Positions 5,565 through 36,388 of a stretch of DNA of 64,000 nucleotides are shown here, one piece after another. The notes beneath the pieces were generated by a model, which was given only the letters and a program-made list of their open reading frames with translations, made no database searches and was not told the origin of the DNA. The DNA comes from a virus. The stretch lies in the IMG/VR virus record IMGVR_UViG_2623620549_000002, positions 1,871-65,870 of that record; one strand, given 5' to 3'. Every line of letters begins with the position of its first letter. Positions within the stretch are counted from its first letter, which is position 1. The translations under genes and the position numbers were made by a program.

Positions 5565-6503
5565 TTAGTCGTTTTCGTGCGCCCAGCTGTCGATCGTCAT
5601 TTTTTGGGCCTCGGTGAAGGTCGCCCGGGTGCTGAGCATGGCAATCAGCTGCGCCGGCGTTTTCTTCTTGCTGTGGATGGTCTGGCGCCATTCCGGCGTT
5701 TTTTGCTTGAACAGCTCGTCGGTGCATTCCGGCAACTGATCGATCGTGCGGTCATCTGTAGCAGCCGCAGCTGGCGTGATGTCGCGCGCCTCGCGGCTGC
5801 CTTCGTCCAACTCGTCCGGCGTATACACGCCCAGGATCACGTCGGGGGAGTAAAGGCGGGTCCAGCGCTTCACAGCCAGGTACGCCAACTGCTGTTTCGG
5901 GTCCGTCGCCCACAGCGGGGAATTACGCACGCTGGCCTGTACCAGCAGCAACTCGAGCACGCGTGGCTCAGTCTCGCCGCGTAACGTCGCCCAGATGCGC
6001 ACGCCCAGGCCATCCTCGTCCTTGAGGTCGTAGTCCGGCACGCGGAACTGATATTCTTTCTTGTAGTCAGCCGCACCCTTCGTGCCCTTCGCCGGCGCGG
6101 TGCAGACCTTGGATTTACCAATGATCTTTTCCCATGGGCCGTACCACTCGTAATTGAAGCGGTCGACCGTGACGCCACTCGACTGGATCACGGCATTGAC
6201 CAATTGCGCCTCGTAGCCCAGCACGCCGTTGACCAAGTGGGTTTTCTGCGCCACTGCGAATGGGTTCATGCGCCACTGAATGGCCTGCATGATGACGGCG
6301 GCACAGTCGGCCGGGCTACCGCGCAGGTGTTCCGGGATCGTGGCGCGGCCTTTAGCCATGATGTCGGCCAGGCGCATCATGCTGTCCATACTTGCGCTGT
6401 CCAAAATCAGCGAGGCGCTGCTGGTTGCCACTACGGGCATGTCGCCCTGGTCGTATTGCGTCGGCTGCATGGCGGTGCGACTTTCTTGCGTAACTGCGTT
6501 CAT
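5565..6503 (-). CDS. recT: RecT-family single-strand annealing protein
   Basis: ADCAAVIMQAIQWRMNPFAVAQKTHLVNGVLGYEAQLVNAVI and W...PKQQLAYLAVKRWTRLYSPDVILGVYTPDE; adjacent to the exonuclease. Confidence 0.85.
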   Translation of the reverse strand: MNAVTQESRTAMQPTQYDQGDMPVVATSSASLILDSASMDSMMRLADIMAKGRATIPEHLRGSPADCAAVIMQAIQWRMNPFAVAQKTHLVNGVLGYEAQLVNAVIQSSGVTVDRFNYEWYGPWEKIIGKSKVCTAPAKGTKGAADYKKEYQFRVPDYDLKDEDGLGVRIWATLRGETEPRVLELLLVQASVRNSPLWATDPKQQLAYLAVKRWTRLYSPDVILGVYTPDELDEGSREARDITPAAAATDDRTIDQLPECTDELFKQKTPEWRQTIHSKKKTPAQLIAMLSTRATFTEAQKMTIDSWAHEND

Positions 6504-6640
6504 GACTTTTTCCTTGTGAGTTTTATGATTTCTGCTTTCAACAGCGCCAGGCGGACGGCGTAGGCGATGGCGTGGCCGGCATGCCAGTTGCGTAAGGCCT
6601 GGCTGGCCACGTCCATCACGGCTTGGCTGACGACGTCCAC
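6500..6640 (-). CDS. small phage protein
   Basis: Read manually: VDVVSQAVMDVASQALRNWHAGHAIAYAVRLALLKAEIIKLTRKKS; stop overlaps the recT ATG. Confidence 0.45.
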   Translation of the reverse strand: MDVVSQAVMDVASQALRNWHAGHAIAYAVRLALLKAEIIKLTRKKS

Positions 6641-6861
6641 TGCGCCTCCCGGTGGGCGCGGCCCAGGCGTTGCACGCGCGCGGCGGATGCCTCCAGGTCG
6701 ATCAGCGCTTCGATCTGTGCAGTGATCAGTTCTTTGCGCATTTCTTCCAGGCCGGCCAGTTCGCGGCGCACGCCGGCCAGGCGCATCTTGTTCATGCGGT
6801 GCTGGTGCTGCGCCTGGGAGTGGCGGTGGGCGGCCAGCAGGCGGTGGAAGAGGGCGATCAT
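6616..6861 (-). CDS. small coiled-coil phage protein
   Basis: 3' part of ORF 6616..7290, starting at MIALFHRLL. Confidence 0.5.
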   Translation of the reverse strand: MIALFHRLLAAHRHSQAQHQHRMNKMRLAGVRRELAGLEEMRKELITAQIEALIDLEASAARVQRLGRAHREAQWTSSAKP

Positions 6862-7517: not shown

Positions 7518-7784
7518 CTACGGTGCGGGCGACCGCTGCTCTTGTTTGGCCAGCTCGACCAGATGGCCGAGCTCTTTGCCGTAGAAGGTGCTGCAGGGAG
7601 AGGCCATACGTGCATCCGTCAGGGCCATGGCATGCGCCACACTTTTGTTGCGGGCCCGGACCTTGTTGCGGTACGTGCCGTCCGTGAAGTGAATCGTCAC
7701 GTCGAAGTGAAAACGCGGGGCCGGCGCATGGTGCTGTGCCAGCTCGGCTTGCAGTTGAGCGGCGTCGTGGTCGCGGGCGCTCAT
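7518..7784 (-). CDS. phage hypothetical protein
   Basis: 88 aa ORF near the start of the leftward operon. Confidence 0.55.
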   Translation of the reverse strand: MSARDHDAAQLQAELAQHHAPAPRFHFDVTIHFTDGTYRNKVRARNKSVAHAMALTDARMASPCSTFYGKELGHLVELAKQEQRSPAP

Positions 7785-7912
7785 GACGATTAGCCGCGGG
7801 CCGGGATTGCGATTGGCGGGATCACTTCGCCATGGGCGACGAGGACCGCTTCAAGTGCTGCGAGCTCTGCTGGGGACATGGTGTACTCCGGTGGTTGCTG
7901 TTCGATAAGCGT

Positions 7913-7954
7913 ATTAAACACCATGTTTATAAACAGAGTCAAACGTTTTGTTTA
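7913..7954 (-). promoter_or_regulatory. PL promoter and OL operators
   Basis: Minus strand TTGACT (7942-7937), 18 bp, TTTAAT (7918-7913). Palindrome TAAACA-CCA-TGTTTA at 7915-7929 and degenerate CAAACG-TTT-TGTTTA at 7940-7954. Confidence 0.75.
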
Positions 7955-8109
7955 ATTTGTGGAGATTTTTGTTTGCTTGAGCGCACGAGGGCTTTGCTGT
8001 TCTGGTGTGTGAACTGACGGACTCCAGGTGTGCTACTGGAGTCGGGAGAGTAGGGGAGTTGTGATTGCTCTACCCAACTTGACTACTTCAATCGCAAAAT
8101 TTTAGGGCG

Positions 8110-8138
8110 AAAAAAAGCCCGCATGTAGCGGGCTTCTT
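8110..8138 (-). terminator. intrinsic terminator for the cI operon
   Basis: AAAAAAAGCCCGC-ATGTA-GCGGGCTT hairpin; U-tract on the minus strand, downstream of 8162..9022. Confidence 0.75.
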
Positions 8139-8161
8139 GAGATGTGGAATAGGGGAGTGGT

Positions 8162-9022
8162 CTACAGAGGCTCTTTCGCAAAAATCTGCCCGGTCTTAGT
8201 GTTGTACACCCAAACTTGGGATAAGGTGGTTACGATTGATGGTCCTGACATTGAGATCTCTGTCGGGCTGTCCATAGTCGCTTTCATGTAGTCGCTGTAT
8301 CGCACAATGTATGGTGCGCTAAGGTTTGTAATGTATAGGATGCCAATATTTCCTTTGCTATCCCTGGCAAGTTCGGGGGCAACTTTAAAAGAAAATTCCG
8401 AGGGGATGTGAATGGACTTTGCTATAGAATTTACGTTGGCAAACGTGATGCCACAAACTAAATAAGTAAAGCTATTTACTTCAATTTTTTTTCCATAACC
8501 ATTTTCAGCCACGTAGCTTCTCGAATCAGATAAATCTTTTATAATCGGTGCTGAGGAATAAAAATTCTCACCAATACGAACTGATTGAGATCCGTGTGAA
8601 ACTATCTTGATCGTCATGGTTTCGGTATCGGCGTCATACTTTGGCAAAAGTAGTGGCCTTGCCGGTGAGAATGCGAGAGTGCTCGTTCCTTTAAGTTTTC
8701 CATATAATGGACTATCTTTGACGAACTCAATACGCTCTGCGAATGCCTTTGAACTCTCGAATTCATCCTTCTCTAACTTGATATTGCCGAGAGGTCTTAC
8801 AATCTCGGCGCAGCTGTGGCCGCGATAATTGGCTGGCAACGATTCAACGCTTATATCAAAGGGATTTTCATCGTAACTGATGGAATCCTGCGCAGTCTTG
8901 CTAGTTTGTTTCGCTTGTTGCTTCTTGGGTGCTACTTTTGATTTTGGCGCATCTTGCGCTTGCAGACAATGATGGAATCCGCCTAGAAGTACTAATGCAA
9001 AAACTACTTTTTTCATAATCAA
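8162..9022 (-). CDS. secreted/periplasmic protein co-transcribed with cI
   Basis: N-terminal signal-peptide-like MKKVVFALVLLGGFHHCLQAQD; AT-rich; directly downstream of cI. Confidence 0.75.
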   Translation of the reverse strand: MIMKKVVFALVLLGGFHHCLQAQDAPKSKVAPKKQQAKQTSKTAQDSISYDENPFDISVESLPANYRGHSCAEIVRPLGNIKLEKDEFESSKAFAERIEFVKDSPLYGKLKGTSTLAFSPARPLLLPKYDADTETMTIKIVSHGSQSVRIGENFYSSAPIIKDLSDSRSYVAENGYGKKIEVNSFTYLVCGITFANVNSIAKSIHIPSEFSFKVAPELARDSKGNIGILYITNLSAPYIVRYSDYMKATMDSPTEISMSGPSIVTTLSQVWVYNTKTGQIFAKEPL

Positions 9023-9084
9023 GATTTCAGTTGTGATTTTAGATTATTTAATGTTGGTGTGGGCTAATCCTGAGATCGCAGTAA

Positions 9085-9783
9085 CTAGATTTTATCTCCT
9101 TCACGTCTTACTACTCGACCGATGATAATGCACTCACCATTCCGGCACATTTTTCTATGATATTTCCTTTGGTCTGCATTATCTGAAGTAAGCCACCATT
9201 CACCAATGTCACGTGATAATCTCTTTACAACAGCTTCACCCTCATAATTTACAGCAAAAACAACGCCGTCCACGGGTTTCTGATCTTCTGTATTGATAAT
9301 GACAATGTCACCTTCATGTAGAGAAGGCTCCATACTTTCCCCTTTTACCTTAATTGCTATTAGCTTGCTTGGCACGAATTTATGCTTTGCTATCCATCGA
9401 GGGTCAAGGGGAATGGTTCCTCCATCGTCAAATTCCGGATCCGCTTGAAAGCCCGTTACCCCGGCAGACAAGCGAAGCTTGACTTTTTTGATATGAACAA
9501 AGTTTGTATTGTCTCGATCTGCCTGTTCAACACGAATTGAACCTGACACGTTGGCAGGCTCAATCGTCGTCAAGGACATAGCTCCAACACCACTCTCTAG
9601 CCAACTGGCTGAGCAGCCAAGTACTGTCTGAGCATTTATCAGGCCAGCTTTTGAAATTCCTCTTGCTTCCCAGTTGTTTATCACCTGGGAGGATACGTTC
9701 AGGGCGCGCGCGACTTCCGCTTGACTATGAAGATTTTTGAGTGCTTCTGCTGCCTCGTAGAGGCGGGTCATCTGTATGTTCAT
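9085..9783 (-). CDS. cI: CI-like repressor (HTH + S24 peptidase)
   Basis: N-terminal HTH (SQAEVARALNVSSQVINNWEARG), A-G-like cleavage site (LSAG), VKGESMEP catalytic Ser and VVKRL Lys; divergent from cro. Confidence 0.92.
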   Translation of the reverse strand: MNIQMTRLYEAAEALKNLHSQAEVARALNVSSQVINNWEARGISKAGLINAQTVLGCSASWLESGVGAMSLTTIEPANVSGSIRVEQADRDNTNFVHIKKVKLRLSAGVTGFQADPEFDDGGTIPLDPRWIAKHKFVPSKLIAIKVKGESMEPSLHEGDIVIINTEDQKPVDGVVFAVNYEGEAVVKRLSRDIGEWWLTSDNADQRKYHRKMCRNGECIIIGRVVRREGDKI

Positions 9784-9802
9784 GCGCGATTTTCCCGTTA
9801 AC

Positions 9803-9867
9803 TAAACAAAATGTGTTACACGCAACGTTTAAATTTGTTTGACTTGTTTATAAACATAGTGTTTAAT
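9803..9867 (+). promoter_or_regulatory. PR promoter and OR operators
   Basis: TTGACT (9839-9844), 17 bp, TTTAAT (9862-9867). Perfect operator TAAACA-TAG-TGTTTA at 9851-9865 and degenerate copy at 9803-9817. Confidence 0.75.
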
Positions 9868-9895
9868 GCTTTCATCTTCACCAGTGAACTCATAC

Positions 9896-10141
9896 ATGAT
9901 GAACAACGATAAAAAGCAAATTACAGAGCTTGGCGGTCCAACAAAGCTGGCCGAACTGCTGGGCTATGCGAAGCAAGGCGGGGTTCAGCGCGTCCAAAAC
10001 TGGATGGTTCGGGGGATCCCCTCCAAGGTGAGGTTGGATCATCCTGAGATATTTGCCGCTGCATTCCGTTCGAGCGCCGAGTCCACTCAAGCCTCAATAC
10101 AGCAGACCGACTCGCGCATCGACGCGGGCGCGAAGCCATGA
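9896..10141 (+). CDS. cro: Cro-like regulator
   Basis: ITELGGPTKLAELLG...QRVQNWMVRGIP HTH pattern; first gene after PR. Confidence 0.8.
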   Translation: MMNNDKKQITELGGPTKLAELLGYAKQGGVQRVQNWMVRGIPSKVRLDHPEIFAAAFRSSAESTQASIQQTDSRIDAGAKP

Positions 10142-12721: not shown

Positions 12722-13122
12722 CTGGCCAAGTTGACAATCGCGCGCGCCCGACTTTTGGCGTAAACAAGACGAAACGCCGCCGTTCTGGCGTCACACTCCC
12801 GAAACAAGGCTCCCGCTCTTACGTGCTACTGCAGGCGTTGCTGGCCGGGCCGGGCACGTTTTACCAGGTGTGCGAGCGCGCTGGCTTCGATATCGAAGAG
12901 GCGGGAATGGAGCACCGCCTGCGCATGATCTTCTCGCGCTTCATACAGGGCAATGTGCGCCTGGTGGGTATTCGCTACGTGGTGAAAGACGCCTCGCGCG
13001 CGGCGCTGCTGGGCGCTGAGTCCGAACAGCCTGGCCAGGTGGCCACGCCACACTTTCGCGGCACGTTGGGCGCAATGCCTGTCCTGGTCGTTCGCCGGCC
13101 AGCTGCCGAGGTGTGGCCATGA
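12718..13122 (+). CDS. phage hypothetical protein
   Basis: GTG start overlapping the KilA-N stop (GTGA); 3' part of ORF 12232..13122. Confidence 0.6.
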   Translation: MTGQVDNRARPTFGVNKTKRRRSGVTLPKQGSRSYVLLQALLAGPGTFYQVCERAGFDIEEAGMEHRLRMIFSRFIQGNVRLVGIRYVVKDASRAALLGAESEQPGQVATPHFRGTLGAMPVLVVRRPAAEVWP

Positions 13123-13169
13123 AGCACGTGCATCAATGTCAAAAGGCCACGAAAAGTGAAGTAGTGCAG

Positions 13170-13775
13170 CTACTCAGCTTTGAGGGCTTCAACGCCTTCG
13201 AAAAAGAGCATCTTGGAATTTTCACAGTTCGAAAGCGTCCTTGTCAGAAACCTTTGAATATCTTCTATGGCCGGAAGGAGCGGGTCATTGAGCAACACTT
13301 CAGCCCACTTATCAAATGTGCTGAGGGATTGCACAATTTTGCTCAAACCGCTCACCATTTTATAGGATCCCAACTCCTGCGCCGGAATGGCGCGTGTTGC
13401 ACCTTGCGCTTCCTGCAGTGCAAATTGCGAAGTGAGAATTGCAGAGCGAATATTATTTTCATTCCCTACCGCCAGACTCTCCGTAATCAATTTGCAAAAT
13501 TGCTGCAATTGGTTCATGGCACGGTCTATTACTGCGGCCGTTGCGTCAGCCCGTCGCATCAACGCTCGTTTATCTGCGTCAATCAAGAGCCGAGCAGCGT
13601 GCTGATTCTGCCGAGTCATTATATAAATTGCTACTCCCAAGGCCGCGATAGAGCCTATCGCTTGCACCCAGCCAGACCAATCGGACTTCGTGAGCTCGTA
13701 GTGATTTCCCAAGATAGCGATGTCGATGATCCCGAAGATTACGAGGAGTGCGACGGTCAGATAGGGATATTTCAT
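13170..13775 (-). CDS. antisense moron, membrane-anchored protein
   Basis: Two N-terminal hydrophobic segments (LTVALLVIFGIIDIAIL; WSGWVQAIGSIAALGVAIYIM); lower GC. Confidence 0.75.
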   Translation of the reverse strand: MKYPYLTVALLVIFGIIDIAILGNHYELTKSDWSGWVQAIGSIAALGVAIYIMTRQNQHAARLLIDADKRALMRRADATAAVIDRAMNQLQQFCKLITESLAVGNENNIRSAILTSQFALQEAQGATRAIPAQELGSYKMVSGLSKIVQSLSTFDKWAEVLLNDPLLPAIEDIQRFLTRTLSNCENSKMLFFEGVEALKAE

Positions 13776-13908
13776 GTAGCTGTCAAGAGTTGCTGGAAAG
13801 GAATCTTAGCATGAGGCGCGACCTTCCCATTTCTCCTTCCAGCATTGGTCGTGGTCTGCCCCTCGCCAACTTCGCGCATGAGCGCGAGATTGCGAGGGTG
13901 GCGTGAAC

Positions 13909-14145
13909 TTAACCTCGACCAACCAACTGACGCAGTTTTTTGAGGTGCGCTTCAATGCTCTCGGTGAAGACTTTCGCTTCACGGACTCGCTCCTGAGCCG
14001 CTTCCACGTCCCCCTCATTTGCTTTCACATAGGCAACATGATTTACAGCGGCGGCCCATTTAGCGCTTTTGATGGCCAGCTCATTTTCAAGTTCGTGAAT
14101 TTTATCTTCGATACTTTCATCGGGTCCAGCTTGGTTATAGCTCAT
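13909..14145 (-). CDS. antisense moron, small coiled-coil protein
   Basis: 78 aa, GAGG RBS, heptad pattern. Confidence 0.6.
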   Translation of the reverse strand: MSYNQAGPDESIEDKIHELENELAIKSAKWAAAVNHVAYVKANEGDVEAAQERVREAKVFTESIEAHLKKLRQLVGRG

Positions 14146-14186
14146 ATATCACCTCGGTATGTGGATTGCATTAAGGAAATATTACC

Positions 14187-14615
14187 ATGATCTACGACCT
14201 TTCCCGTTCCGAGCGGCAACACCGCGCTATCGCCAATGAAAGCCCCACGCCGACTTTGGTGCGCAAGGTCTGCGCATGCGGCAAAGCCAGCACCGCCAAG
14301 CAGCTGGCCCAGCACGGCAAATGCGCCGCCTGCGCGCTGGCCGCCGTCCGCGACGCAATCATGCCTGGCGACTTCGCCAAGCTGCAGCACATGCTGGGCG
14401 CCGTGCAGCAATATCCGAAGTCAAAATGGGGCTGGCGCAACTATTTTGCCGCCGACAACGTCCAGCAGCACGAGGCCATGCAGCGCCTCGTGGCCGCCGG
14501 CCTGGCCACGGCTGGCCGCATGACTGGCGACATGACCTACTTCCACGCCACCCGCCTGGGTTGCAAGGCTGCTGGCCTCGACACCGCAGGCATCAAGCGT
14601 GCGATGGAGGATTGA
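14187..14615 (+). CDS. phage hypothetical protein with CxC...CxxC motif
   Basis: AAGGA RBS; VCACGK...KCAAC; GC-rich phage-like codon usage. Confidence 0.7.
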   Translation: MIYDLSRSERQHRAIANESPTPTLVRKVCACGKASTAKQLAQHGKCAACALAAVRDAIMPGDFAKLQHMLGAVQQYPKSKWGWRNYFAADNVQQHEAMQRLVAAGLATAGRMTGDMTYFHATRLGCKAAGLDTAGIKRAMED

Positions 14616-14749
14616 CGATGAACCAGTCCGAATTATTCGCGGCTGGTATCGCGCAATTGCCTGGGCAAGCCATGACAAAAACCGCATATGAGGTAGTTCG
14701 CAGCAGTTCTTCGAGCAGCGCTCGATTTATCGGGAAAGTCGATATTTCC

Positions 14750-15382
14750 TTACTTGAACTGCAATCCCCAATCAGCCTCACGCTCTATAACGTCACGTCC
14801 CTGCTCAATAAGGGGGATTGCGTTGCTCAAGATACCAATGCATTCAGAAAGGTGCTCGCGGAGACTATCGGTATTCGTATCAGTGGCATCTGTTCCTTTC
14901 AGTATTTTGACGCACGCATTGATAACACCTTGACCCAGCGCGATTTTGTCCGCGCAGTGATCTGGAAGAGGAATAAGCCTGCTCAACTCATCCGCAGTGA
15001 AATAGACGCTGCGATCAAGAGTATCGCTAACAATGAAAATTGCCTTAATTACATCGTGCTCAACAGCGGCATGCTCATCAAGAAAATCTCTCAAGTTCGA
15101 CAGGGATTCAAGAACCCCTTTTGCAAGCGACTCTGTATGCAGCAAATTCATGTGGATGTGGAGAGCAGTCAATTTAGCCTTGGAAAGAGCTTCTGCTCGT
15201 CTGTGCCTGGACTCGTTTGTTGCAAGCCAAATAGTTCCCAAGAGGGTGGAGATCGTACCAACCGCAGCAACCCAATATGCCCATACCGTAATGTCCATCT
15301 TGCACCATGGAATTCCTTCGTAGCCAGCCAAACCTATGGCTCCGGCTATGACCATGATTGCCCATTTGTCGTACCAAGCCAT
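14750..15382 (-). CDS. antisense moron, membrane-anchored protein
   Basis: Start MAWYDKW (ATG 15382, GAGG upstream); two N-terminal hydrophobic segments (WAYWVAAVGTISTLLGTIWLA). Confidence 0.75.
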   Translation of the reverse strand: MAWYDKWAIMVIAGAIGLAGYEGIPWCKMDITVWAYWVAAVGTISTLLGTIWLATNESRHRRAEALSKAKLTALHIHMNLLHTESLAKGVLESLSNLRDFLDEHAAVEHDVIKAIFIVSDTLDRSVYFTADELSRLIPLPDHCADKIALGQGVINACVKILKGTDATDTNTDSLREHLSECIGILSNAIPLIEQGRDVIEREADWGLQFK

Positions 15383-15438
15383 CCTGCCTCCGAATTTAGT
15401 TGGCGGAATGGTAACACGCAAAGTATTGGCGGTGGGAA

Positions 15439-16185
15439 ATGATCCACTACCACGGACTGCCAATAACCCCGGCTACCGCCGCGGTACGTGCCATCAGCTG
15501 TGGCCACGCCTTCGTTTCGTTCCGCCATTCGGACCAGTTGACCATCGCCTTGGAGGTGGCGCAGTCGTTTGCAGTCGACAATGGGGCTTTCTCGGCCTGG
15601 CGCAGCGGCCAACCGATCACAGACTGGTCGCTATTCTATGAATGGGTGGGTGAGTTACACCGTTACCCGAACTTCGATTTCGCGGTAATCCCTGACGTCA
15701 TCGACGGTAGCGAGGCCGACAACGATGCGCTGCTGGCCGAATGGCCATGGCGAGCGTCGGCGCCGCATGTCGGTGCGCCGGTGTGGCATCTACACGAGTC
15801 GCTGGGCCGTTTGGATCGCCTCGTCAGCGATTGGCCGCGCATTTGCCTGGGCAGTTCGGGCGAGTTCGCGCAGATCGGTACGCCGGCGTGGTGGACCCGA
15901 ATGGCCATGGCAATGGATGTGATCTGCGACCGGCAGGGGCTGCCTGCGGCGAAAGTTCATGGGCTGAGAATGCTTGATCCAGCCATTTTCTCTCGCTTCC
16001 CGTTCTCCAGCGCCGACAGCACCAACATCGGCCAGAACGTGGGGATTGATTCGGCGTGGCGCGGTACCTACACGCCGCCAACGAAAGAGGCGCGCGCGGC
16101 CATCATGCGGGAGCGTATCGAGACGCACCAGTCGATCACGTTCTGGCAGCGAACGGCCGCGCCAATTCAGGAGGGGCTGTTTTAA
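15439..16185 (+). CDS. TGT/DpdA-like (tRNA-guanine transglycosylase fold) protein
   Basis: Ordered motifs DNGAFS, AVIPDVI, PVWH, ICLGSS, VHGLR, SADSTN parallel the TGT/DpdA barrel motifs. Assignment is by eye. Confidence 0.6.
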   Translation: MIHYHGLPITPATAAVRAISCGHAFVSFRHSDQLTIALEVAQSFAVDNGAFSAWRSGQPITDWSLFYEWVGELHRYPNFDFAVIPDVIDGSEADNDALLAEWPWRASAPHVGAPVWHLHESLGRLDRLVSDWPRICLGSSGEFAQIGTPAWWTRMAMAMDVICDRQGLPAAKVHGLRMLDPAIFSRFPFSSADSTNIGQNVGIDSAWRGTYTPPTKEARAAIMRERIETHQSITFWQRTAAPIQEGLF

Positions 16186-16204
16186 TGACTCTGAAAAAAC
16201 CCAT

Positions 16205-16459
16205 TTATTTAATCCAGTGCAGGGCTTGTGCTGCAGTGATGCCTGTACTGATCGCAGAAATTAACATGCCGAATGCCGCGACGATTGCTGCAACCATGGT
16301 CCATTTTGCTGAACGCTGCGCTGCTTCGGCAGCTAATTTTGCCGCGGCGCTGGAGTCGGCGGCCGTCGCCATTGTTGAAGCAGCTAATTCTTCTAGAGCT
16401 GTCGCCGTTCGTTTTGCCGAATGTGCTTTCAGGAATTCAGTGGGTTCCATAATTTCCAT
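16205..16459 (-). CDS. antisense moron, small protein with C-terminal TM helix
   Basis: 84 aa; KWTMVAAIVAAFGMLISAISTGI hydrophobic segment. Confidence 0.6.
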   Translation of the reverse strand: MEIMEPTEFLKAHSAKRTATALEELAASTMATAADSSAAAKLAAEAAQRSAKWTMVAAIVAAFGMLISAISTGITAAQALHWIK

Positions 16460-16483
16460 TTCTAGCGAAAAGCGAATCGTAGC

Positions 16484-16969
16484 ATGATGCGTCGCTCCCC
16501 CATGAAGCCCGCTACCACGCCGATGAAACGCACGGCTTTCGCACGAAGCGAGCGCATCGAGGCGCGCGAAGTGTCAAAGCTCAAGCGTACGGCGCCGAAG
16601 CGCAAGGTCGGCTTGAGGGCCAAAGGCCAGCGCTCGACGCCGATCCGGCGCGCCGCGCGCGGCCAGGACTGCACGCTGCGCCTGGCCGTCTGCAACTTCG
16701 ACCCTGACACCACCGTGCTTTGCCACTCGAATTTCCTGGCGGACGGAAAAGGCTTGGGCCTGAAGGCACCAGACACGGCCGCCGCGTTCGGCTGCAGCGC
16801 CTGCCACGACGTACTTGACGGCCGGCGCCCGCGCCCGGCTGATCTGTCGCTGGAATGCCTGCAGGCTGCCTTTCGCTTGGCCGTGGGCCGCACACACGAA
16901 ATTTTACGGTCAATGGGTCTGCTCGCTGCGGCGGCCAATAATCAAAAACAAAATATGGAACACACATGA
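16484..16969 (+). CDS. DUF1364/YbcO-family nuclease-like protein
   Basis: ARGQDCTLRL.VCNFDPDTTVLCH...GKGLGLKAPD...AFGCSACHDVLDGR. Confidence 0.85.
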   Translation: MMRRSPMKPATTPMKRTAFARSERIEAREVSKLKRTAPKRKVGLRAKGQRSTPIRRAARGQDCTLRLAVCNFDPDTTVLCHSNFLADGKGLGLKAPDTAAAFGCSACHDVLDGRRPRPADLSLECLQAAFRLAVGRTHEILRSMGLLAAAANNQKQNMEHT

Positions 16970-17373
16970 CGCGAATTAACTTCAGTGAATTTGTTCTGGG
17001 CGCTATGCCCGGCACCAAAGCCGATATCGTCACTAAGTCCGGCGTCAGCCAGGCAGCCGTGCTGCGCTGGGTGCGCTTGCTGCACGCCGATCGCAAGATC
17101 CATATCGCCGGCTGGCGGCCGCACCCGCGTGCTGGCGCCGCCATGGCTGTGTATGCCGTCGGCAACCTGCCAGACGCGCCGTGCAAGCTGCAGCACCTGT
17201 CCAAGCGCCAGATTCGCTTGCGCTTCGAGGCCAAGGCCAAGAAGGACGGCCGCTATGACTCGATGAAGGCGCGCTGGCGCAGCAAGTACTGGATCCGAAA
17301 GGCGGGCGCCGTGGGTGACCCGCTGGTAGTGGCCCTGTTCGGCACGGCGCGTGTGCAGGAGGCCCTTCCTTGA
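16966..17373 (+). CDS. phage hypothetical protein, probable winged-helix
   Basis: TKADIVTKSGVSQAAVLRWVRLL HTH-like segment; coupled to both neighbours. Confidence 0.6.
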   Translation: MTRINFSEFVLGAMPGTKADIVTKSGVSQAAVLRWVRLLHADRKIHIAGWRPHPRAGAAMAVYAVGNLPDAPCKLQHLSKRQIRLRFEAKAKKDGRYDSMKARWRSKYWIRKAGAVGDPLVVALFGTARVQEALP

Positions 17374-25711: not shown

Positions 25712-27283
25712 TTAGTCGTAAGCTGGGATGTTTATTGTGAGACGTCCTTCGAAGATTGTATTTAGCGATGGATATCGATATTGCTCCATATTGTGCATGT
25801 TGGCTTCAGTAAGCGTGATTTGCACTTTGAGGAAGTCAGCCTTCGGGAATAGATAAAAAGTACTTGCTTTTGTGTTTTCAAGATCAAGAAGTACTGCCAG
25901 AACAAAATCGCATCTGGACTCCTCATCCAGTCGTATCCGCCAGCGAGGAGGGGCCTGCTTTTCGTACAGGCATCTTGCTATCGTGATCTTCAAGACAATC
26001 CGATCATCGAGCAGCAGAGTATTGCGAGATGACCCGTTTACTTGGCTGACACCCGTTTTCGAAATGAGTCCCACAATTCGTTCGTGCGTTTCTGCGCGAA
26101 CAGTTCGTACTATTTTCCGCGTGGCCACGAACTTATGTTCGTTGATAGGTGGCAGTCCAGCAAGGGCGTAGGCTTCCAGCATGGTGCCAAAGTAGTAGGC
26201 GAACATCTGTGCACCGGGAAGTGTATTGTCCTGATCAATTAGCACGGTGGTTACCTTCCCATGTTTTTCATGTAACTTGCGCAGCATTGCCAAGAGTTCT
26301 TCTTTTGGAATCGGAGCGAGGCGAAGTTTGCGCTCTTGCTGCGCTTTACGAAAAAGGGCAACCGGGATAAGGGGAGGGAAGGCACCGATCCTTTGTATCC
26401 ACATGGATGCAGGATTCTCGACGTGATACTTTCGGAGCTTGAAAGAGGCTCTGTTGTAGATGATGTTGCCAATGTACTTTTCGTTTGTAAGCACATCACG
26501 AACGCAGTCACGAGTCCAAGCGCGGCCGCATTCGCGAGGTGCCTCCATTGCATTTAACAAGAAAGCAATTTCGCTTTCACTTAGCCTTTCCAGTACGTAC
26601 CAGTCGTACACTCCTCGAAGAATCTCAAGCTCCTCATTTGGTCCAGGAACTAGTATTACGCGGTCTGTAGGATGGCTCTTCCTTTCTCCGTATTCCAGTG
26701 CCGGCTTGGCCTTGCCGTTTGCACTGATAGGTATTCGGCGCAATCCAAATCCCGCTCTGCCACCTTGCTTAAATCCCATTTCTACAAAACGGCACTGAGC
26801 TGCAAACACCTTGGTTGAAAGTTCTCTGCTGTACTCGGCGGCCATGGCGCGCTTTACGCTCTTAATTATGGACGAGACCGAAGATCCATTGTTCTCGAAG
26901 TCTTCTGCACAATAGACGATGGCGACTCCTGCGCGGCGGCATATGTATTCGTAGTAGGCGCTTTCGTCCAAGTCCTGGAACCTTCCCCAGCGGCTTATAT
27001 CATAGGCAAGTATCGACTGAAATGGTGCTACGCCACTTTGCACGTCTTCTATCAGGCTTCGTAAGCCTGGGCGAGAGGAAAAATCGAGCCCGCTCCTACC
27101 CTCGTCGGTGTATGTTTTGATAATGTCTATGCCATGGCGTTCTGCGTACTCCGAAATGCAATGAAGCTGATGTAAAACAGAATGATTTTGATTGTCTGTA
27201 GACATCCGGACGTATACCGCAGCTGTCGGCTTTGCACTTTTTTCCTTCGCCTTTGGAACGTGTATGGCTGCTTTGCGTCGCAT
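25712..27283 (-). CDS. large serine recombinase (recombinase family protein)
   Basis: YVRMST catalytic Ser, DEGRSG, YDISRWGRFQD, KRAMAAEYSRELS and a downstream recombinase domain (LTNEKYIGNIIYNR). Confidence 0.9.
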   Translation of the reverse strand: MRRKAAIHVPKAKEKSAKPTAAVYVRMSTDNQNHSVLHQLHCISEYAERHGIDIIKTYTDEGRSGLDFSSRPGLRSLIEDVQSGVAPFQSILAYDISRWGRFQDLDESAYYEYICRRAGVAIVYCAEDFENNGSSVSSIIKSVKRAMAAEYSRELSTKVFAAQCRFVEMGFKQGGRAGFGLRRIPISANGKAKPALEYGERKSHPTDRVILVPGPNEELEILRGVYDWYVLERLSESEIAFLLNAMEAPRECGRAWTRDCVRDVLTNEKYIGNIIYNRASFKLRKYHVENPASMWIQRIGAFPPLIPVALFRKAQQERKLRLAPIPKEELLAMLRKLHEKHGKVTTVLIDQDNTLPGAQMFAYYFGTMLEAYALAGLPPINEHKFVATRKIVRTVRAETHERIVGLISKTGVSQVNGSSRNTLLLDDRIVLKITIARCLYEKQAPPRWRIRLDEESRCDFVLAVLLDLENTKASTFYLFPKADFLKVQITLTEANMHNMEQYRYPSLNTIFEGRLTINIPAYD

Positions 27284-31447: not shown

Positions 31448-31909
31448 ATGGCCGCACTCAAGGACGAGGTGAAGCTGTACGTCGTCACCGCGCTGGCCTG
31501 TTTCGACTCGCCCACGCAGGTGTCGATAGCGGTAAAAGAGGAATTCGGGCTCGATGTGAGCCGCCAACAGGTCTCCTGCTATGACCCGAACACGTACGTC
31601 GGCCGTAACCTGAGCCAGAAATGGCGGACGATCTTCGAAGAGACCCGGACGAAGTTCCGCGCCACGGCTGAGGAAATCCCGATCGCCAGCAAGGCATTCC
31701 GCTTGCGTGGCCTGGGCCGCCTGGCACAGAAGGCCGAGAACATGCGCAACTTGCCACTGGTCGCCAGTCTCTACGAGCAGGCCGCCAAGGAAGTGGGCGA
31801 CATCTACGTGAACAAGGGCAAGGCCGAGCAGGCCGACCAAGCGCCCACGCCTGTCGCAATTACCTTCGGCGTGAAAGACGCCAAGCGCCATGACGACAAT
31901 CCAGTTTGA
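31448..31909 (+). CDS. terminase small subunit (DUF2280)
   Basis: MAALKDEVKLYVVTALACFDSPTQV...YDP...IPIASKAFRLRGL...LYEQAAKEVG. Confidence 0.85.
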   Translation: MAALKDEVKLYVVTALACFDSPTQVSIAVKEEFGLDVSRQQVSCYDPNTYVGRNLSQKWRTIFEETRTKFRATAEEIPIASKAFRLRGLGRLAQKAENMRNLPLVASLYEQAAKEVGDIYVNKGKAEQADQAPTPVAITFGVKDAKRHDDNPV

Positions 31910-33176
31910 CCTGAACGTCCCGCAATCGAGCTTCCTGCAGCTGCCGCACAAGTTCAAGGCTTACGTGGCCGGGTTCGGCTCGGGCAAGACGTTTGTGGGC
32001 TGCGCCGGCATCTGCGCCCACTTTTGGCAATGGCCAGGCATCAACCAAGGCTACTTCGCGCCGACCTATCCGCAGATTCGCGACATCTTCTATCCCACGA
32101 TGGAGGAGGTGGCCTACGCGATGGGCCTGCGCATCAAGGTGAAGCAGGGCGACCACGAAGTCGAGGTGTACGAGGGCCGACGCTATCGCGGCACCGTCAT
32201 CTGCCGCTCGATGGAAAAGCCTGAAACCATCGTCGGCTTCAAGATCGGCCACGCGCTGATCGATGAGTTAGACGTGATGCCGCTGAAGAAGGCGCAGACG
32301 GCCTGGCGCAAGATCATCGCCCGTATGCGCTACAAGGTGCCGGGTCTGATGAACGGCATCGATGTGACGACGACGCCCGAGGGCTTCAAGTTCGTGTATC
32401 AGCAGTTCGTGAAGGCCATCCGGGACAAGCCAGAGCTGGCCAGCCTGTACGGCCTGATCCAGGCGAGCACGTTCGACAACGAGCTGAACCTGCCAGACGA
32501 CTATATTCCGTCGCTGATGGCCAGCTACCCGCCGGCGCTGATCGATGCTTACCTGCGCGGAAAGTTCACCAACCTGACTAGCGGCAGTGTGTACGCCGAC
32601 TTCGACCGCATGCTGAACCACACGAACGAGATCATCCTGCCCGGCGAGCCGCTGATGGTGGGCCTCGACTTCAACGTCCAGAACATGACAGCATGCGTCA
32701 ACGTGGTGCGCGACGGCCTGCCGCGCACGCTGGCCGAGCGCGTGCAAGTGCGTGACACGCCAGCCATGGCCAAGATCCTGAAGGAAGACTTCAAGGACAA
32801 AGGCCACCAGGTGAAGATTTTCCCGGATGCGTCCGGCCAGAACACCAGCAGCAAGAACGCGAGCGAGTCCGACCTGTCCATTTTGCGCCAGGCGGGCTTC
32901 ATTCTCGAAGTGAATCACTCAAACCCTGCGGTCAAGGACCGGGTCAACGCCTACAACGGCATGATCCTGAACGCCCAGGGCGAGCGTCGCTGGAAGATCA
33001 ACACTGATCAGTGCCCGACCACCACCGAGGCGCTGGAGCAGCAGGTGTGGGGTGCCGACGGCCAGCCGGACAAGAAATCCGGCCACGACCATCCGAATGA
33101 CGCGAACGGCTACTTCCTCGTGAAGCGCTACCCGATCGTGAAGAGCACGACGACCACCGCGCCGCTGCGGATGTAA
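31890..33176 (+). CDS. terminase large subunit
   Basis: AGFGSGKT Walker A, LIDE Walker B, TTPEG, GLDFN nuclease motif, DHPNDA. Confidence 0.93.
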   Translation: MTTIQFDLNVPQSSFLQLPHKFKAYVAGFGSGKTFVGCAGICAHFWQWPGINQGYFAPTYPQIRDIFYPTMEEVAYAMGLRIKVKQGDHEVEVYEGRRYRGTVICRSMEKPETIVGFKIGHALIDELDVMPLKKAQTAWRKIIARMRYKVPGLMNGIDVTTTPEGFKFVYQQFVKAIRDKPELASLYGLIQASTFDNELNLPDDYIPSLMASYPPALIDAYLRGKFTNLTSGSVYADFDRMLNHTNEIILPGEPLMVGLDFNVQNMTACVNVVRDGLPRTLAERVQVRDTPAMAKILKEDFKDKGHQVKIFPDASGQNTSSKNASESDLSILRQAGFILEVNHSNPAVKDRVNAYNGMILNAQGERRWKINTDQCPTTTEALEQQVWGADGQPDKKSGHDHPNDANGYFLVKRYPIVKSTTTTAPLRM

Positions 33177-33190
33177 CAACAAGGATTTCC

Positions 33191-34555
33191 ATGACCGATG
33201 TACGCACACAATCAGCCGAAGCCGCCAAGCTGAACGAGGATTGCGCGCTAATCGCCGCGCTGCTGGGCGGTACCAAGACCATGAGGGCGGCTGGCAAGAA
33301 GTATCTGCCGCAGTGGCCAGGCGAAGACAGCGCAAGCTACGACCTTCGTCTCGCCGTGGCTACGCTGTTTCCAGCATACGCCCGCACCATCGACGTGCTG
33401 TCGGCCAAGCCGTTCAGCAAGCCGGTGACGTTGGGCGAGGACGTGCCTGAGCGGCTCAAGCCCTGGCTGCAAAATGTCGACCTGTCCGGCCGCGACTTGC
33501 ATAGCTTCCTCTCGGAGATCACACAGGAGGCGATGGGGTACGGCTTCGCCGGCATCCTGGTCGACTTCCCCAAGGCGGGAAATCTGGTCACGAAGGCCGA
33601 CGAGCAGGCCGCTGGCGTGCGCCCGTATTTTGTTCAGGTGCACGTCCAGAACATCCTGGGTTGGCTGCCGAAGAATGCGACCAGTCTTGAAGGACTGACC
33701 CAGCTGCGGCTGCTGGAGAGCGTGTCCGAGCCGAATGGTGACTTCGATACCAAGGAAATTGAGCAGGTGCGCGTCTTGGGGCGGGGCTCCTGGCAGACCT
33801 GGCGCCAGCGCGAGGCCGGCAGCAAGAAGGAATGGGCGCTGTTTGAGGAAGGCGTCACCACACTGGAGACAATCCCCTTCGTGCCCGTCTACGGCAAGCG
33901 CCTGGGCTACATGCAGGCCACGCCACCGCTGCTCGAGCTGGCGCACAGCAACGTCGAGCACTGGCAGAGCAAGAGCGACCAGCAGAATATCCTGCACGTC
34001 GCGCGCGTGCCGATCCTGTTTGCCAAGATGCTGGGCGAGGGCGGCATCACGGTCGGCGCCGGCAGCGCGGTCAAGTCGGAATCGCCAGAGGGCGACCTGA
34101 AGTTCGTGGAGCACGGCGGCAAGGCCATCGAGGCCGGCCGCCTGTCCATCCTCGACCTGGAAGACCGTATGCGCCAGGCCGGCGCCGAGCTGCTGGTGAT
34201 CAAGCCGGGCAACGTGACCGAATCGCAGACCCTGGCCGACAACGAGCAGGGCGCATGCGCGCTGCAGAAGATCGCGGGCAACGTCGAAGACGCAGGCGAC
34301 CAGGCCCTGCAGTTCATGGCTGAATGGGTGAGGGAGGCCGAAGGCGGCCATATCACCATTTTCAAGGACTTCGGCGCAGCGTCGCTGGCCGAGGCAAGTG
34401 CCGAGTTGCTATTCAAGAGCGTGGCGAATAACCGAATTTCCGGCGAAACCTACTTCAACGAGTTGCAGCGCCGCGGCATCGTGTCGCCAGACTTGAAGTG
34501 GGAGGATGAGCAGGAGCGCATCCAGTCGGCTCCGCCTGACTTGGAAGGGACATAG
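33191..34555 (+). CDS. portal protein (DUF4055)
   Basis: Follows TerL; YLPQWPGED...Y..RL; PPLLELAHSNVEHWQSKSDQ. Confidence 0.88.
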   Translation: MTDVRTQSAEAAKLNEDCALIAALLGGTKTMRAAGKKYLPQWPGEDSASYDLRLAVATLFPAYARTIDVLSAKPFSKPVTLGEDVPERLKPWLQNVDLSGRDLHSFLSEITQEAMGYGFAGILVDFPKAGNLVTKADEQAAGVRPYFVQVHVQNILGWLPKNATSLEGLTQLRLLESVSEPNGDFDTKEIEQVRVLGRGSWQTWRQREAGSKKEWALFEEGVTTLETIPFVPVYGKRLGYMQATPPLLELAHSNVEHWQSKSDQQNILHVARVPILFAKMLGEGGITVGAGSAVKSESPEGDLKFVEHGGKAIEAGRLSILDLEDRMRQAGAELLVIKPGNVTESQTLADNEQGACALQKIAGNVEDAGDQALQFMAEWVREAEGGHITIFKDFGAASLAEASAELLFKSVANNRISGETYFNELQRRGIVSPDLKWEDEQERIQSAPPDLEGT

Positions 34556-35641: not shown

Positions 35642-35760
35642 TTTCGTGCCAGTGATTATTCGCAAGCACCCCATAGAGTAAGGGACTTAGCTTTTCACGG
35701 TTATTTCACACATTATTAGGATAGAATAAACAATTCTTTGCAAAAATTTCAGGATCGAAC

Positions 35761-36357
35761 GTGATTAACTGGTCTGACGTTGTACCCGTAACGGTTGTAG
35801 CAGCCATAGCAATCTTCGGAATTAAAGAAATTCTAGAATTTAGGCGGCGGAAAATTGCCGATGTGAGAAAGCTCTCGGCACTCAAAAAACTATTTGCACG
35901 GGAATGCGAACTTAATGCATGGACGATAAAGGCGCTCGTACGTATTTTTCAAGGTTTCAAAGATGATCCAAGCGATCTAGATTTTGTCACAATAGCGACA
36001 CATAAAAGTGGGCATGTTTATTTGCACGTACAGGATGATTCAAAAAATCTTTTGGGTCAAACTTGGGTTCCATCGGTGCAGCGTGAGGCAATGTCTAAAT
36101 ATTCTTTAGATGTCGCCACGCTCAGTGAGGAGTTTTATGGCCTTGTTGAGATAGCACTTGATGGACTTGCTCAGACTCAGCATGTTCGTGATTACATCTT
36201 GCAACTGGGTGAGGAAAACACATTTCTGGATCGCTCTGATTATTCTGCTAGCCTGGCCGATTATTCTCTTGAAGAACTCGCGGACGCGCAGGATGCACTT
36301 AAGAAATTGTATACGTATTGCACCGGAAAGATTCTTGAGGGGCACAGACTTCGCTGA
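35761..36357 (+). CDS. AT-rich moron, N-terminally anchored protein
   Basis: VTVVAAIAIFGI TM segment; sharp GC drop; between head genes. Confidence 0.7.
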   Translation: MINWSDVVPVTVVAAIAIFGIKEILEFRRRKIADVRKLSALKKLFARECELNAWTIKALVRIFQGFKDDPSDLDFVTIATHKSGHVYLHVQDDSKNLLGQTWVPSVQREAMSKYSLDVATLSEEFYGLVEIALDGLAQTQHVRDYILQLGEENTFLDRSDYSASLADYSLEELADAQDALKKLYTYCTGKILEGHRLR

Positions 36358-36388
36358 TTGATGTAGTCCCCTAATAGTTTGAATTTGC

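What the first reader, a model, noticed from the sequence alone, without database searches (positions are those of the whole stretch)
15439..16185. Stand-alone TGT/DpdA-fold enzyme in a temperate phage: possible DNA base exchange
The motifs DNGAFS, PDVI, PVWH, LGSS, VHGLR and SADSTN occur in the order expected for the TGT barrel (DSGGF, substrate Asp, HxxG, catalytic Asp). Phage DpdA proteins are known to swap guanine for 7-deazaguanine derivatives in DNA. No folE/queD/queE/queC genes are in the window, so it would need host preQ0/preQ1 or would act on another base or on RNA. It sits among early replication genes, consistent with anti-restriction. The fold call is by eye.
Basis: inference. Interest (0 to 1): 0.7.

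Follow-up and report, generated by a model that had tools for sequence, protein, structure and literature searches.

The report
Solitary phage DpdA DNA-modification gene
This prophage gene encodes a compact member of the known phage DpdA family, enzymes that swap guanine in DNA for a 7-deazaguanine base. It probably uses a precursor made by the host, so it is a new member of a catalogued but barely tested group and not a new kind of system.

Summary
The ORF at 15439-16185 (+), 248 aa, is real, and all six motifs are there in the stated order. They are conserved: D47, H174, D193 and S194 in 53/53 diverse homologues, D86 and H117 in 52/53.

Family assignment:
- Pfam and NCBIfam find nothing, but it falls in PHROG 887 (E 1.3e-67), which also holds the validated DpdA enzymes of phages 9g and Iggy.
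- Profile-profile comparison with seven DpdA1 proteins gives 99.35% probability (E 5.6e-21), and the catalytic motifs align.
- The AlphaFold model (pLDDT 95.5) is an eight-stranded TIM barrel. Its best solved matches are TGT-superfamily members (Cap10, archaeosine TGT, bacterial DpdA, TGT; Z 13.7-15.2), only slightly above generic barrels (Z 13.1).

Context:
- The 66-kb provirus has no TGT, QueC, QueD, QueE-type, FolE, QueF or YhhQ gene.
- Related Janthinobacterium-type genomes encode QueC, QueF and TGT.
- It is 45-51% identical to proteins of Salmonella phages BTP1 and SPN3UB and Shigella phage SfI, and 36% to that of phage 7-11. Hutinet et al. 2019 list all of these as "DpdA-only" phages. 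Phage 7-11 DNA carries trace dADG.

This scan has also noted it before on other DNA. Interest is low to moderate.

The parts
15439..16185 (+). Solitary DpdA-family gene (248 aa, P0001): a minimal TGT-superfamily TIM barrel. Putative general acid/base D47 (DNGAF), base-recognition D86/D89 and H117, Gly/Ser loop G138-G141, H174, and putative nucleophile D193 (SADS).
   Evidence: ORF and motifs. PHROG 887, E 1.3e-67. hhalign to DpdA1 98.6% and 99.35%. AF2 pLDDT 95.5. Structural neighbours. Conservation.
15427..15433 (+). Shine-Dalgarno-like GGTGGGA just upstream of the ATG.
   Evidence: Read directly from the sequence. Homologues begin with the same MIHYHG N-terminus.
16484..16969 (+). Context only: YbcO-like / HNH-type nuclease gene downstream on the same strand.
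   Evidence: PF07102 YbcO 8.7e-25 and phrog_131 2.5e-29. It is not a conserved neighbour of the DpdA-like gene in 31 related loci.
17370..18149 (+). Context only: DUF1376 / O-like replication (primosomal) protein gene.
   Evidence: PF07120 2.2e-34, phrog_6451 8.5e-41, phrog_678.
18136..18807 (+). Context only: DUF6475 early-region gene.
   Evidence: PF20081 5.7e-36, phrog_10105 2.1e-70.
9085..9783 (-). Context only: cI-type repressor with S24 peptidase-like C-terminus. It marks the element as temperate.
   Evidence: phrog_4 1.8e-41, phrog_6201, phrog_811.

Best explanation
The gene encodes a solitary ('DpdA-only') phage DpdA: a DNA guanine transglycosylase reduced to the catalytic TIM barrel. 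It is expressed from the early lytic operon together with the replication genes. By analogy with TGT and DpdA, it would flip a guanine out of double-stranded phage DNA. D193 would displace the base to form a covalent enzyme-deoxyribose intermediate, with D47 acting as general acid/base. D86/D89 and H117 would read the Watson-Crick edge, and F51 would stack on the base. The intermediate would then be resolved with a 7-deazaguanine base (preQ0, or its amide ADG) taken from the host's queuosine pathway, because the phage has no synthesis genes of its own. The expected result is a low, probably motif-restricted level of dPreQ0 or dADG in progeny DNA that blunts host restriction. What is shown here: homology, fold, conserved catalytic residues, absence of phage que genes, and presence of the pathway in related hosts. 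What is inferred: DNA as the substrate, the identity of the inserted base, the level of modification, and the anti-restriction benefit.
For: Family: PHROG 887 matches P0001 (1.3e-67). The same PHROG holds validated DpdA1 of Iggy (5.1e-86) and 9g (2e-98), and the 7-11 singleton (7.1e-74). Profile A1 against Iggy DpdA gives 98.6%, E 5.4e-16. A1 against a 7-sequence DpdA1 alignment gives 99.35%, E 5.6e-21 over 175 columns, with all catalytic motifs in register. Iggy DpdA finds the homologous ORF in 30 of 31 related loci by tblastn.

Fold: pLDDT 95.5, pTM 0.92, eight beta-alpha units. VIA-align top four are Cap10 Z 15.2, archaeosine TGT 15.1, DNA preQ0 insertase DpdA 7ui4 13.9 and TGT 13.7. Foldseek's top PDB hits are TGTs. 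BFVD hits with E<=0.001 that carry a name are all phage 'queuine tRNA-ribosyltransferase', and the list includes the Cellulophaga phiST protein.

Residues: D47, H174, D193, S194 are 53/53; D86 and H117 are 52/53; F/Y51 is 51/53. These correspond to the D95/F99/D130/H181/D256 set that defines the DpdA active site, where D95A and D256A abolish exchange (PMC10164549).

Substrate supply: no que genes in the provirus. QueC, QueF and TGT are in 4/4 related Oxalobacteraceae genomes, two of which share the host flank at 79-93% DNA identity.

Precedent: 9g DpdA alone puts dPreQ0 into plasmid DNA in E. coli. Phage 7-11, which encodes only a DpdA 36% identical to this protein, carries dADG at 50 per 10^6 nt (PMC6884629). 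A clade member in Caulobacter phage DMCA is start/stop-overlapped with a PTPS/QueD-like ORF, which ties the clade to deazapurine chemistry.
Against: No member of this exact clade (BTP1/SPN3UB/SfI-like, about 50% identical) has been assayed. The only tested relative, 7-11, shows just 0.02% of G modified, and the mycobacterial singleton phage Orion shows none. Hutinet et al. themselves say the singleton clusters may have diverged functionally. The protein lacks the roughly 40 N-terminal and 60-90 C-terminal residues of DpdA1 and has no Zn subdomain, so how it would grip DNA is unclear. It is acidic (pI 5.8). No conserved partner gene exists, whereas bacterial DpdA needs the ATPase DpdB. The structural margin over unrelated TIM barrels is small (Z 15 vs 13). 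Direct profile comparison with a canonical TGT is insignificant (7%). The actual host genome is not held, so its preQ0 pathway is inferred from relatives.
Confidence: 0.6

Rival explanations
1. A DpdA-family barrel with a diverged activity: it still binds a guanine or 7-deazaguanine-type base but acts on something other than bulk phage DNA. Possibilities are a glycosylase-like excision, insertion of a different base, or action on a protein-linked or free deazaguanine (as Cap10 handles NDG-CD-NTase), perhaps as a counter-defence.
For: The best single structural match is Cap10 (Z 15.2). Cap10's catalytic Asp/His pair (D248/H226) has the same spacing class as the invariant H174/D193 here. Hutinet 2019 flags possible functional divergence of singleton clusters. 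Modification is trace or absent in the two tested singleton phages. The protein is minimal and acidic, with no obvious nucleic-acid-binding extension.
Against: Cap10 ties with archaeosine TGT (15.1) and is within 1.5 Z of DpdA, so structure does not discriminate. The H/D pair is equally invariant in DNA-modifying DpdA1 (H193/D212). No CD-NTase, Cap9/QueC or Qat gene is in the provirus. Sequence-wise the family is far closer to DpdA1 (99.35%) than to anything else.
Confidence: 0.2
2. A phage tRNA-guanine transglycosylase: it modifies host or phage tRNA (position 34 or another) with preQ0/preQ1 to tune translation during lytic growth.
For: Database annotations call the family 'queuine tRNA-ribosyltransferase'. 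The superfamily's founding members act on tRNA. The host makes preQ1 (QueF present in relatives).
Against: These names are inherited by homology, not tested. The Pfam TGT model does not match. The Zn subdomain and C-terminal tRNA-binding parts of TGT are absent, and no Cys is conserved. hhalign to the host-type TGT is 7%, against 99.35% to DNA-modifying DpdA1. Related hosts already have their own TGT.
Confidence: 0.1
3. Functionally silent passenger in this host: an intact DpdA-family gene that produces no meaningful modification because substrate, partner or expression is lacking, as seen for phage Orion.
For: Orion (DpdA-only) DNA has no deazaguanine. No conserved partner exists. One close homologue in Duganella matches only residues 1-186 and may be truncated.
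Against: The family is large and under clear purifying selection on catalytic residues: more than 7000 proteins, 845 clusters at 50% identity, catalytic residues 52-53/53. Orion's host lacks the preQ0 pathway, whereas relatives of this host have it.
Confidence: 0.1

Closest known systems
'DpdA-only' phage DpdAs (group 3 of Hutinet et al. 2019, Nat Commun, PMC6884629): Salmonella phages BTP1, SPN3UB, SEN1; Shigella phage SfI; coliphage HK106; Salmonella phages 7-11 and SE131
   Same: Same PHROG (887). Similar size, 234-250 aa where checked (7-11 234 aa; family alignment A1). 45-51% identity to BTP1/SPN3UB/SfI, 46% to SEN1, 35-36% to HK106, 7-11 and SE131. Solitary, with no que genes, mostly in the early/accessory region of temperate phages of Proteobacteria. 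All are listed as DpdA singletons in the paper's supplementary data.
   Different: The host is a betaproteobacterium (Janthinobacterium-type), whereas the paper's singleton cluster was described for gamma-Proteobacteria. The nearest relatives (75-92%) are in Oxalobacteraceae and Burkholderia prophages. Only 7-11 has any chemistry (trace dADG), and the BTP1-like clade is untested.
Phage DpdA1 (Enterobacteria phage 9g, Escherichia phages CAjan/Bas24, Pseudomonas phage Iggy)
   Same: Homologous over beta2-beta8 (hhalign 99.35%). Shared motifs are DxGAFS, (V/L)xDG, FH/WH, GG/GS loop, K(V/L)HG and S(A/C)DS. Experimentally these enzymes insert preQ0 or G+ into DNA.
   Different: About 26-27% identity only. 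DpdA1 is 300-317 aa, with extra N- and C-terminal segments. It is always next to FolE/QueD/QueE/QueC and modifies up to about 30% of G. The window's protein has none of these neighbours.
Bacterial DpdA of the dpd cluster (Salmonella Montevideo, PDB 7UI4)
   Same: TIM-barrel transglycosylase fold (Z 13.9, 214 residues, rmsd 3.4 A). The active-site logic is the same: Asp general acid/base in a D-x-G-x-F motif, Asp/His base readout and an Asp nucleophile.
   Different: 413 aa with DpdA-specific insertions. It needs the DpdB ATPase and works within a restriction-modification-like island. No sequence-level hit, and no DpdB/DpdC-like neighbour here.
tRNA-guanine transglycosylases (bacterial TGT, archaeosine TGT 1IQ8, eukaryotic QTRT1)
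   Same: Superfamily fold (Z 13.7-15.1) and the double-displacement Asp chemistry inferred from motif order.
   Different: No Pfam PF01702 match. No Zn-binding subdomain or tRNA-binding domains. hhalign to a host-type TGT is insignificant.
Cap10 of type IV CBASS (PDB 9NTN)
   Same: Top structural match (Z 15.2, 232 residues). It has a conserved catalytic Asp with a His hydrogen-bond partner.
   Different: Cap10 works with Cap9 (QueC-like) and a CD-NTase in a bacterial defence operon and handles a protein-linked deazaguanine. None of these partners is in the provirus. Identity is 9%.

Membership tests
Phage DpdA family (PHROG 887; DpdA1 plus singleton DpdA) | Significant sequence/profile homology to experimentally validated phage DpdA | tested here: met
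   phrog_887 E 1.3e-67. The same PHROG is hit by Iggy and 9g DpdA. hhalign 98.6% to Iggy DpdA and 99.35% (E 5.6e-21) to a 7-sequence DpdA1 alignment.
Phage DpdA family (PHROG 887; DpdA1 plus singleton DpdA) | TGT-like (beta/alpha)8 barrel fold | tested here: met
   AF2 pLDDT 95.5 with eight strand-helix units. The top four of 48,161 PDB representatives are TGT-superfamily (Z 13.7-15.2), but generic barrels follow at 13.1. BFVD neighbours are phage DpdA-type proteins.
Phage DpdA family (PHROG 887; DpdA1 plus singleton DpdA) | General acid/base Asp in a D-S/N-G-A/G-F motif, with the stacking aromatic | tested here: met
   D47 53/53 and F/Y51 51/53, aligned to DpdA1 D69...F73. Equivalent to D95/F99 of 7UI4 per PMC10164549; that last step is by motif, not by superposition.
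Phage DpdA family (PHROG 887; DpdA1 plus singleton DpdA) | Nucleophile Asp at the end of the last barrel strand | tested here: met
   D193-S194 53/53, at the end of strand 191-194, aligned to the invariant D212-S213 of DpdA1.
Phage DpdA family (PHROG 887; DpdA1 plus singleton DpdA) | Asp and His that read the Watson-Crick edge of guanine/7-deazaguanine | tested here: inconclusive
   H117 (52/53) aligns with the invariant DpdA1 H138. For the Asp, hhalign puts D89 (31/53) on the invariant DpdA1 D111, whereas the family-conserved residue is D86 (52/53), three positions earlier. One of the two is expected to serve, but a superposition with ligand was not possible.
Phage DpdA family (PHROG 887; DpdA1 plus singleton DpdA) | Gene-dependent 7-deazaguanine in DNA | not testable with these tools
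   Needs LC-MS/MS of virion DNA. The only literature precedents are for relatives.
'DpdA-only' group (Hutinet 2019 group 3) | No preQ0/G+ synthesis genes in the phage genome | tested here: met
   No PF01702, PF06508, PF01242, PF14489, PF02592, PF01227 or PF04055 match in six frames of the 66,442-base provirus. CheckV completeness is 89%, so a small part may be missing. No Iggy Que homologue lies within +/-8 kb in 31 related loci.
'DpdA-only' group (Hutinet 2019 group 3) | Host able to supply a 7-deazaguanine precursor | tested here: inconclusive
   The host genome itself is not held. QueC, QueF and TGT are present in 4/4 related Oxalobacteraceae genomes that carry homologous prophage genes. 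Two of them match the host flank at 79-93% identity.
Canonical tRNA-guanine transglycosylase (Pfam PF01702) | Match to the TGT family model | tested here: not met
   No Pfam or NCBIfam hit at E<=1. hhalign to a Janthinobacterium TGT gives 7%. The validated Iggy DpdA also lacks a Pfam TGT hit.
Canonical tRNA-guanine transglycosylase (Pfam PF01702) | C-terminal Zn-binding subdomain (CxCxxC...H) | tested here: not met
   The protein ends about 55 residues after the last barrel strand. Its three Cys (21, 136, 163) are not conserved.
Bacterial Dpd system DpdA | Encoded with DpdB (ParB-like ATPase), DpdC and restriction genes DpdD-K | tested here: not met
   The neighbours are a YbcO-like nuclease, DUF1376 and DUF6475 replication-region genes and unknowns. 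No neighbour is conserved across 31 loci. Dedicated DpdB/DpdC models were not run.
Type IV CBASS Cap10 | Operon with a CD-NTase and Cap9 (QueC-like) | tested here: not met
   No QueC-family match anywhere in the provirus. The setting is a prophage early operon. Structural similarity alone is Z 15.2.

The most novel reading that the evidence does not exclude
The solitary, minimal DpdA clade of temperate phages may not be a bulk DNA modifier. It could instead be a counter-defence or regulatory enzyme that exploits 7-deazaguanine chemistry in another way. Examples: stripping or hijacking the deazaguanine (NDG) handle that Cap9/Cap10 or QatC-type immunity attaches to proteins, marking only a few specific sites such as cos/pac or the origin, or marking the lysogen's chromosome. 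That would explain the trace or absent modification in tested singleton phages and the lack of any DNA-binding extension.
Probability: 0.07. Interest if true: 0.8.

Novelty: new member of a known kind. Interest (0 to 1): 0.25.

Why it matters
It adds a betaproteobacterial (Janthinobacterium-type) prophage to the large "DpdA-only" group: more than 7000 proteins, 845 clusters at 50% identity, and 105 sequenced phages with a match. What this group does is still essentially untested. Only phage 7-11 has been analysed, and it showed 0.02% of G as dADG. If these minimal enzymes do modify DNA with host-made precursors, then a large share of temperate phages of Proteobacteria carry a cheap one-gene anti-restriction device, and prophage induction would draw on the host queuosine pathway. 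The 248-aa protein would also be the smallest known DNA transglycosylase scaffold. For this window alone the finding is ordinary, because the reading matches what the literature already proposes.

Tried and rejected
1. Pfam and NCBIfam scans of the protein found nothing. This is not evidence against DpdA membership, because the validated Iggy DpdA has no Pfam TGT hit either.
2. phmmer and hmmsearch of the protein, of profile A1 and of the DpdA1 profile A2 against PDB sequences gave only noise: GCN4, enolase, tail fibre, a cobalamin-binding protein. No residue-level alignment to 7UI4 or a TGT could therefore be printed. The mapping to D95/D130/D256 goes through DpdA1 and motif order.
3. hhalign of A1 against a single host-type TGT gave 7%. 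The local match did fall on the correct beta6 GG loop.
4. Foldseek against PDB gave weak scores (E about 3e-4, TM about 0.5) in which TGTs mix with tryptophan synthase, aldolases and pyruvate kinase. VIA-align and BFVD were needed to separate them.
5. Search for a conserved partner: tblastn of ten window neighbours, the four Iggy Que proteins and the DMCA QueD-like protein against 31 related loci. No neighbour recurred beyond the closest Janthinobacterium/Duganella prophages, and no Que gene appeared.
6. Search for a small QueF-like, QueD-like or YhhQ-like partner of the kind noted elsewhere in this scan: none in the provirus. The + strand ORFs abutting the gene (14618-15442, 16185-16487) have no Pfam or PHROG hit.
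7. Literature search for functional work on temperate-phage singleton DpdA after 2019 found none.
8. Considered and not run: a homodimer or complex prediction (no binding claim is made), and sequencing-run searches (short-read or contig data cannot show base modification).

Full report
**Observation.** The window has an ATG-to-TAA ORF at 15439-16185 on the + strand, encoding 248 residues. A GGTGGG ribosome-binding-like stretch lies just upstream. I aligned the protein with 52 full-length cluster representatives that are 33-83% identical to it (alignment A1). D47, H174, D193 and S194 are invariant. D86, H117, A50, I88 and N95 are 52/53, and G138 and G175 are 50/53. The motifs are therefore selected features and not chance strings. 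GC3 of the ORF is 0.75, like the neighbouring bona fide genes.

**Setting.** The record behind the window is an IMG/VR provirus of 66,442 bases.
- It has a cI/S24-type repressor at 9085-9783(-), a serine-recombinase-type integrase at 25712-27283(-), and terminase, portal and major-head genes at 31890-38619. It is a temperate tailed phage.
- The gene lies in the rightward early operon. Downstream on the same strand are a YbcO-like nuclease (16484-16969), a DUF1376/O-like replication protein (17370-18149) and a DUF6475 protein.
- The left 7.5 kb of the window is host DNA. It is 87-93% identical to a Janthinobacterium MAG and 79-89% identical, in synteny, to Janthinobacterium sp. UMAB-56. The host is therefore a Janthinobacterium-type betaproteobacterium.

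**Sequence evidence.**
- Pfam and NCBIfam give no hit, and sequence searches of PDB chains give noise.
- PHROGs places the protein in phrog_887, 'queuine tRNA-ribosyltransferase', at E 1.3e-67.
- That PHROG is also the best hit of the experimentally validated DNA transglycosylases of phage 9g (2e-98) and Pseudomonas phage Iggy (5.1e-86), and of the DpdA-only protein of Salmonella phage 7-11 (7.1e-74).
- tblastn shows a graded series. Identity is 45-58% to proteins of temperate phages (Acinetobacter AB3P2, Pseudomonas Epa33, Salmonella BTP1/SPN3UB, Shigella SfI and many vibriophages). It is 35-37% to 7-11, SE131, HK106 and Caulobacter phage DMCA. It is 24-28% over residues 46-196 to the DpdA of Queuovirinae, Iggy and BcepGomr, which sit next to FolE/QueD/QueE/QueC.
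- Profile-profile comparison makes the distant link firm. A1 against Iggy DpdA gives 98.6% probability (E 5.4e-16). A1 against a seven-sequence DpdA1 alignment gives 99.35% (E 5.6e-21, 175 columns).
- In that alignment LDNGAFS pairs with LDSGAFS, VWH with CFH, LGSS with IGG, KLHGL with KVHGF and SADST with SCDSS.

**Structure.**
- The AlphaFold2 model built on A1 is very confident (mean pLDDT 95.5, pTM 0.92). It has eight strand-helix units, and every conserved motif lies at the C-terminal end of a strand, which is the catalytic face of a TIM barrel.
- An exhaustive VIA-align search of 48,161 PDB representatives ranks four TGT-superfamily proteins first: Cap10 of type IV CBASS (Z 15.2), archaeosine TGT (15.1), the DNA preQ0 insertase DpdA 7UI4 (13.9) and bacterial TGT (13.7). 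Unrelated barrels begin at 13.1, so the margin is small.
- Foldseek on PDB is weak but also puts TGTs first.
- In BFVD the 32 matches at E<=0.001 are, wherever they are named, phage 'queuine tRNA-ribosyltransferase' proteins. The list includes Cellulophaga phage phiST, with Vibrio phage nt-1 just below the threshold.
- Taken together with the profile evidence, the TGT/DpdA fold call is correct.

**Active site.** In bacterial DpdA the defining residues are D95 (general acid/base), F99 (stacking), D130 and H181 (base readout), a Gly-rich beta6 loop, and D256 (nucleophile). D95A and D256A abolish guanine exchange (PMC10164549). Through the DpdA1 alignment the counterparts here are D47, F51, D86 or D89, H117, G138-G141 and D193. 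One point is uncertain. hhalign places D89 (31/53) on the invariant DpdA1 Asp, but the family-conserved residue is D86 (52/53). The protein lacks the Zn subdomain of TGTs, since no Cys is conserved. It also lacks the N- and C-terminal extensions of DpdA1. It is essentially the bare barrel.

**Solitary status and substrate supply.** Six-frame HMM searches of the whole provirus find no TGT, QueC, PTPS/QueD, QueF, YhhQ-type transporter, GTP cyclohydrolase I or radical-SAM protein. In 31 related genomic loci (40-92% identity) no neighbour is conserved and no Que homologue lies within 8 kb. Four related Oxalobacteraceae genomes that carry homologous prophage genes each encode QueC, QueF and a canonical TGT. 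A host source of preQ0/preQ1 is therefore plausible, although the actual host genome is not available. One clade member, in Caulobacter phage DMCA, overlaps a 98-aa PTPS/QueD-like ORF (22.5 bits against a cut-off of 22.4). This links the clade to deazapurine chemistry.

**What is already known.**
- Hutinet et al. 2019 (PMC6884629) divided DpdA-encoding phages into three groups. [quoted passage not shown]
- Their supplementary table lists BTP1, SPN3UB, SfI, HK106, SEN1, SE131 and 7-11. These are exactly the phages whose proteins match this one.
- In their similarity network the singleton DpdAs form separate clusters, and the authors note that they may have diverged functionally.
- Experimentally, 9g DpdA alone inserts dPreQ0 into plasmids. 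Phage 7-11 DNA has dADG at 50 per 10^6 nt (0.02% of G). The mycobacterial singleton phage Orion has none.
- I found no later functional work on the temperate-phage clade.
- Earlier notes of this scan reached the same classification on other genomes.

**Mechanism and rivals.**
- Most likely (about 0.6): the protein is a post-replicative DNA guanine transglycosylase that uses host preQ0 or ADG at low or motif-restricted level to blunt restriction.
- About 0.2: a diverged activity on another target. The tie with Cap10, the minimal acidic protein, and the trace or absent modification in tested singletons keep this open.
- About 0.1: tRNA modification. This is disfavoured by the missing Zn and tRNA-binding parts and by the far stronger link to DpdA1 than to TGT.
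- About 0.1: a silent passenger. This is disfavoured by strong conservation across more than 7000 homologues.

**Verdict.** Interest is 0.25.

Noticed in passing
window 13119-13814, 13903-14190, 14618-15442, 16185-16487 (both strands): Four lower-GC segments between the early genes each carry overlapping ORFs on both strands. The minus-strand ORFs (13170-13775 201 aa, 14750-15463 237 aa, 16205-16459 84 aa) have hydrophobic, TM-like stretches and look like antisense morons. The + ORFs tile with ATGA/TAATG overlaps. Only 13170-13775(-) has any family hit (phrog_33632, 4e-6). GC3 does not decide which strand codes.
   Followed up: partly
window 18851-19648 (-): A 265-aa ORF opposite to the early operon has GDSWF and GGGNDF motifs that by eye resemble an SGNH/GDSL hydrolase. 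It has no PHROG hit, and Pfam was not run.
   Followed up: no
window 25712-27283 (-): A large serine-recombinase-type integrase (phrog_95, 1.6e-46, also matching DNA invertase) lies in the middle of the element and not at an end. The flanking 24-30 kb region has lower GC (0.50-0.52).
   Followed up: no
window 62001-64000: GC drops sharply to 35%, and the region holds a 519-aa minus-strand ORF (62163-63722) that matches only an unknown-function PHROG (phrog_14259, 6.6e-23). This could be a foreign insertion or cargo at the right end of the prophage.
   Followed up: no
L034 (Caulobacter phage DMCA, PQ480021.1) 5705-6726: A 98-aa PTPS/QueD-like ORF (PF01242, 22.5 bits, cut-off 22.4) overlaps the start of a DpdA-like gene that is 36.6% identical to the window's protein. 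This is a two-gene unit in a cultured phage where the clade's chemistry could be tested.
   Followed up: partly
L015 (Duganella sp. BJB476) 8001-8558: The homologue is 82% identical but matches only residues 1-186 of the query, so it would lack the SADS nucleophile strand. It may be a truncated or frameshifted copy.
   Followed up: no
L001 (Janthinobacterium sp. UMAB-56) 7597-10136: In the closest isolate genome the gene order is 135-aa unknown, DpdA-like, DUF1376, DUF6475, with no YbcO-like nuclease or low-GC segment in between. The window's 16185-16969 stretch therefore looks like an insertion or rearrangement relative to it.
   Followed up: partly
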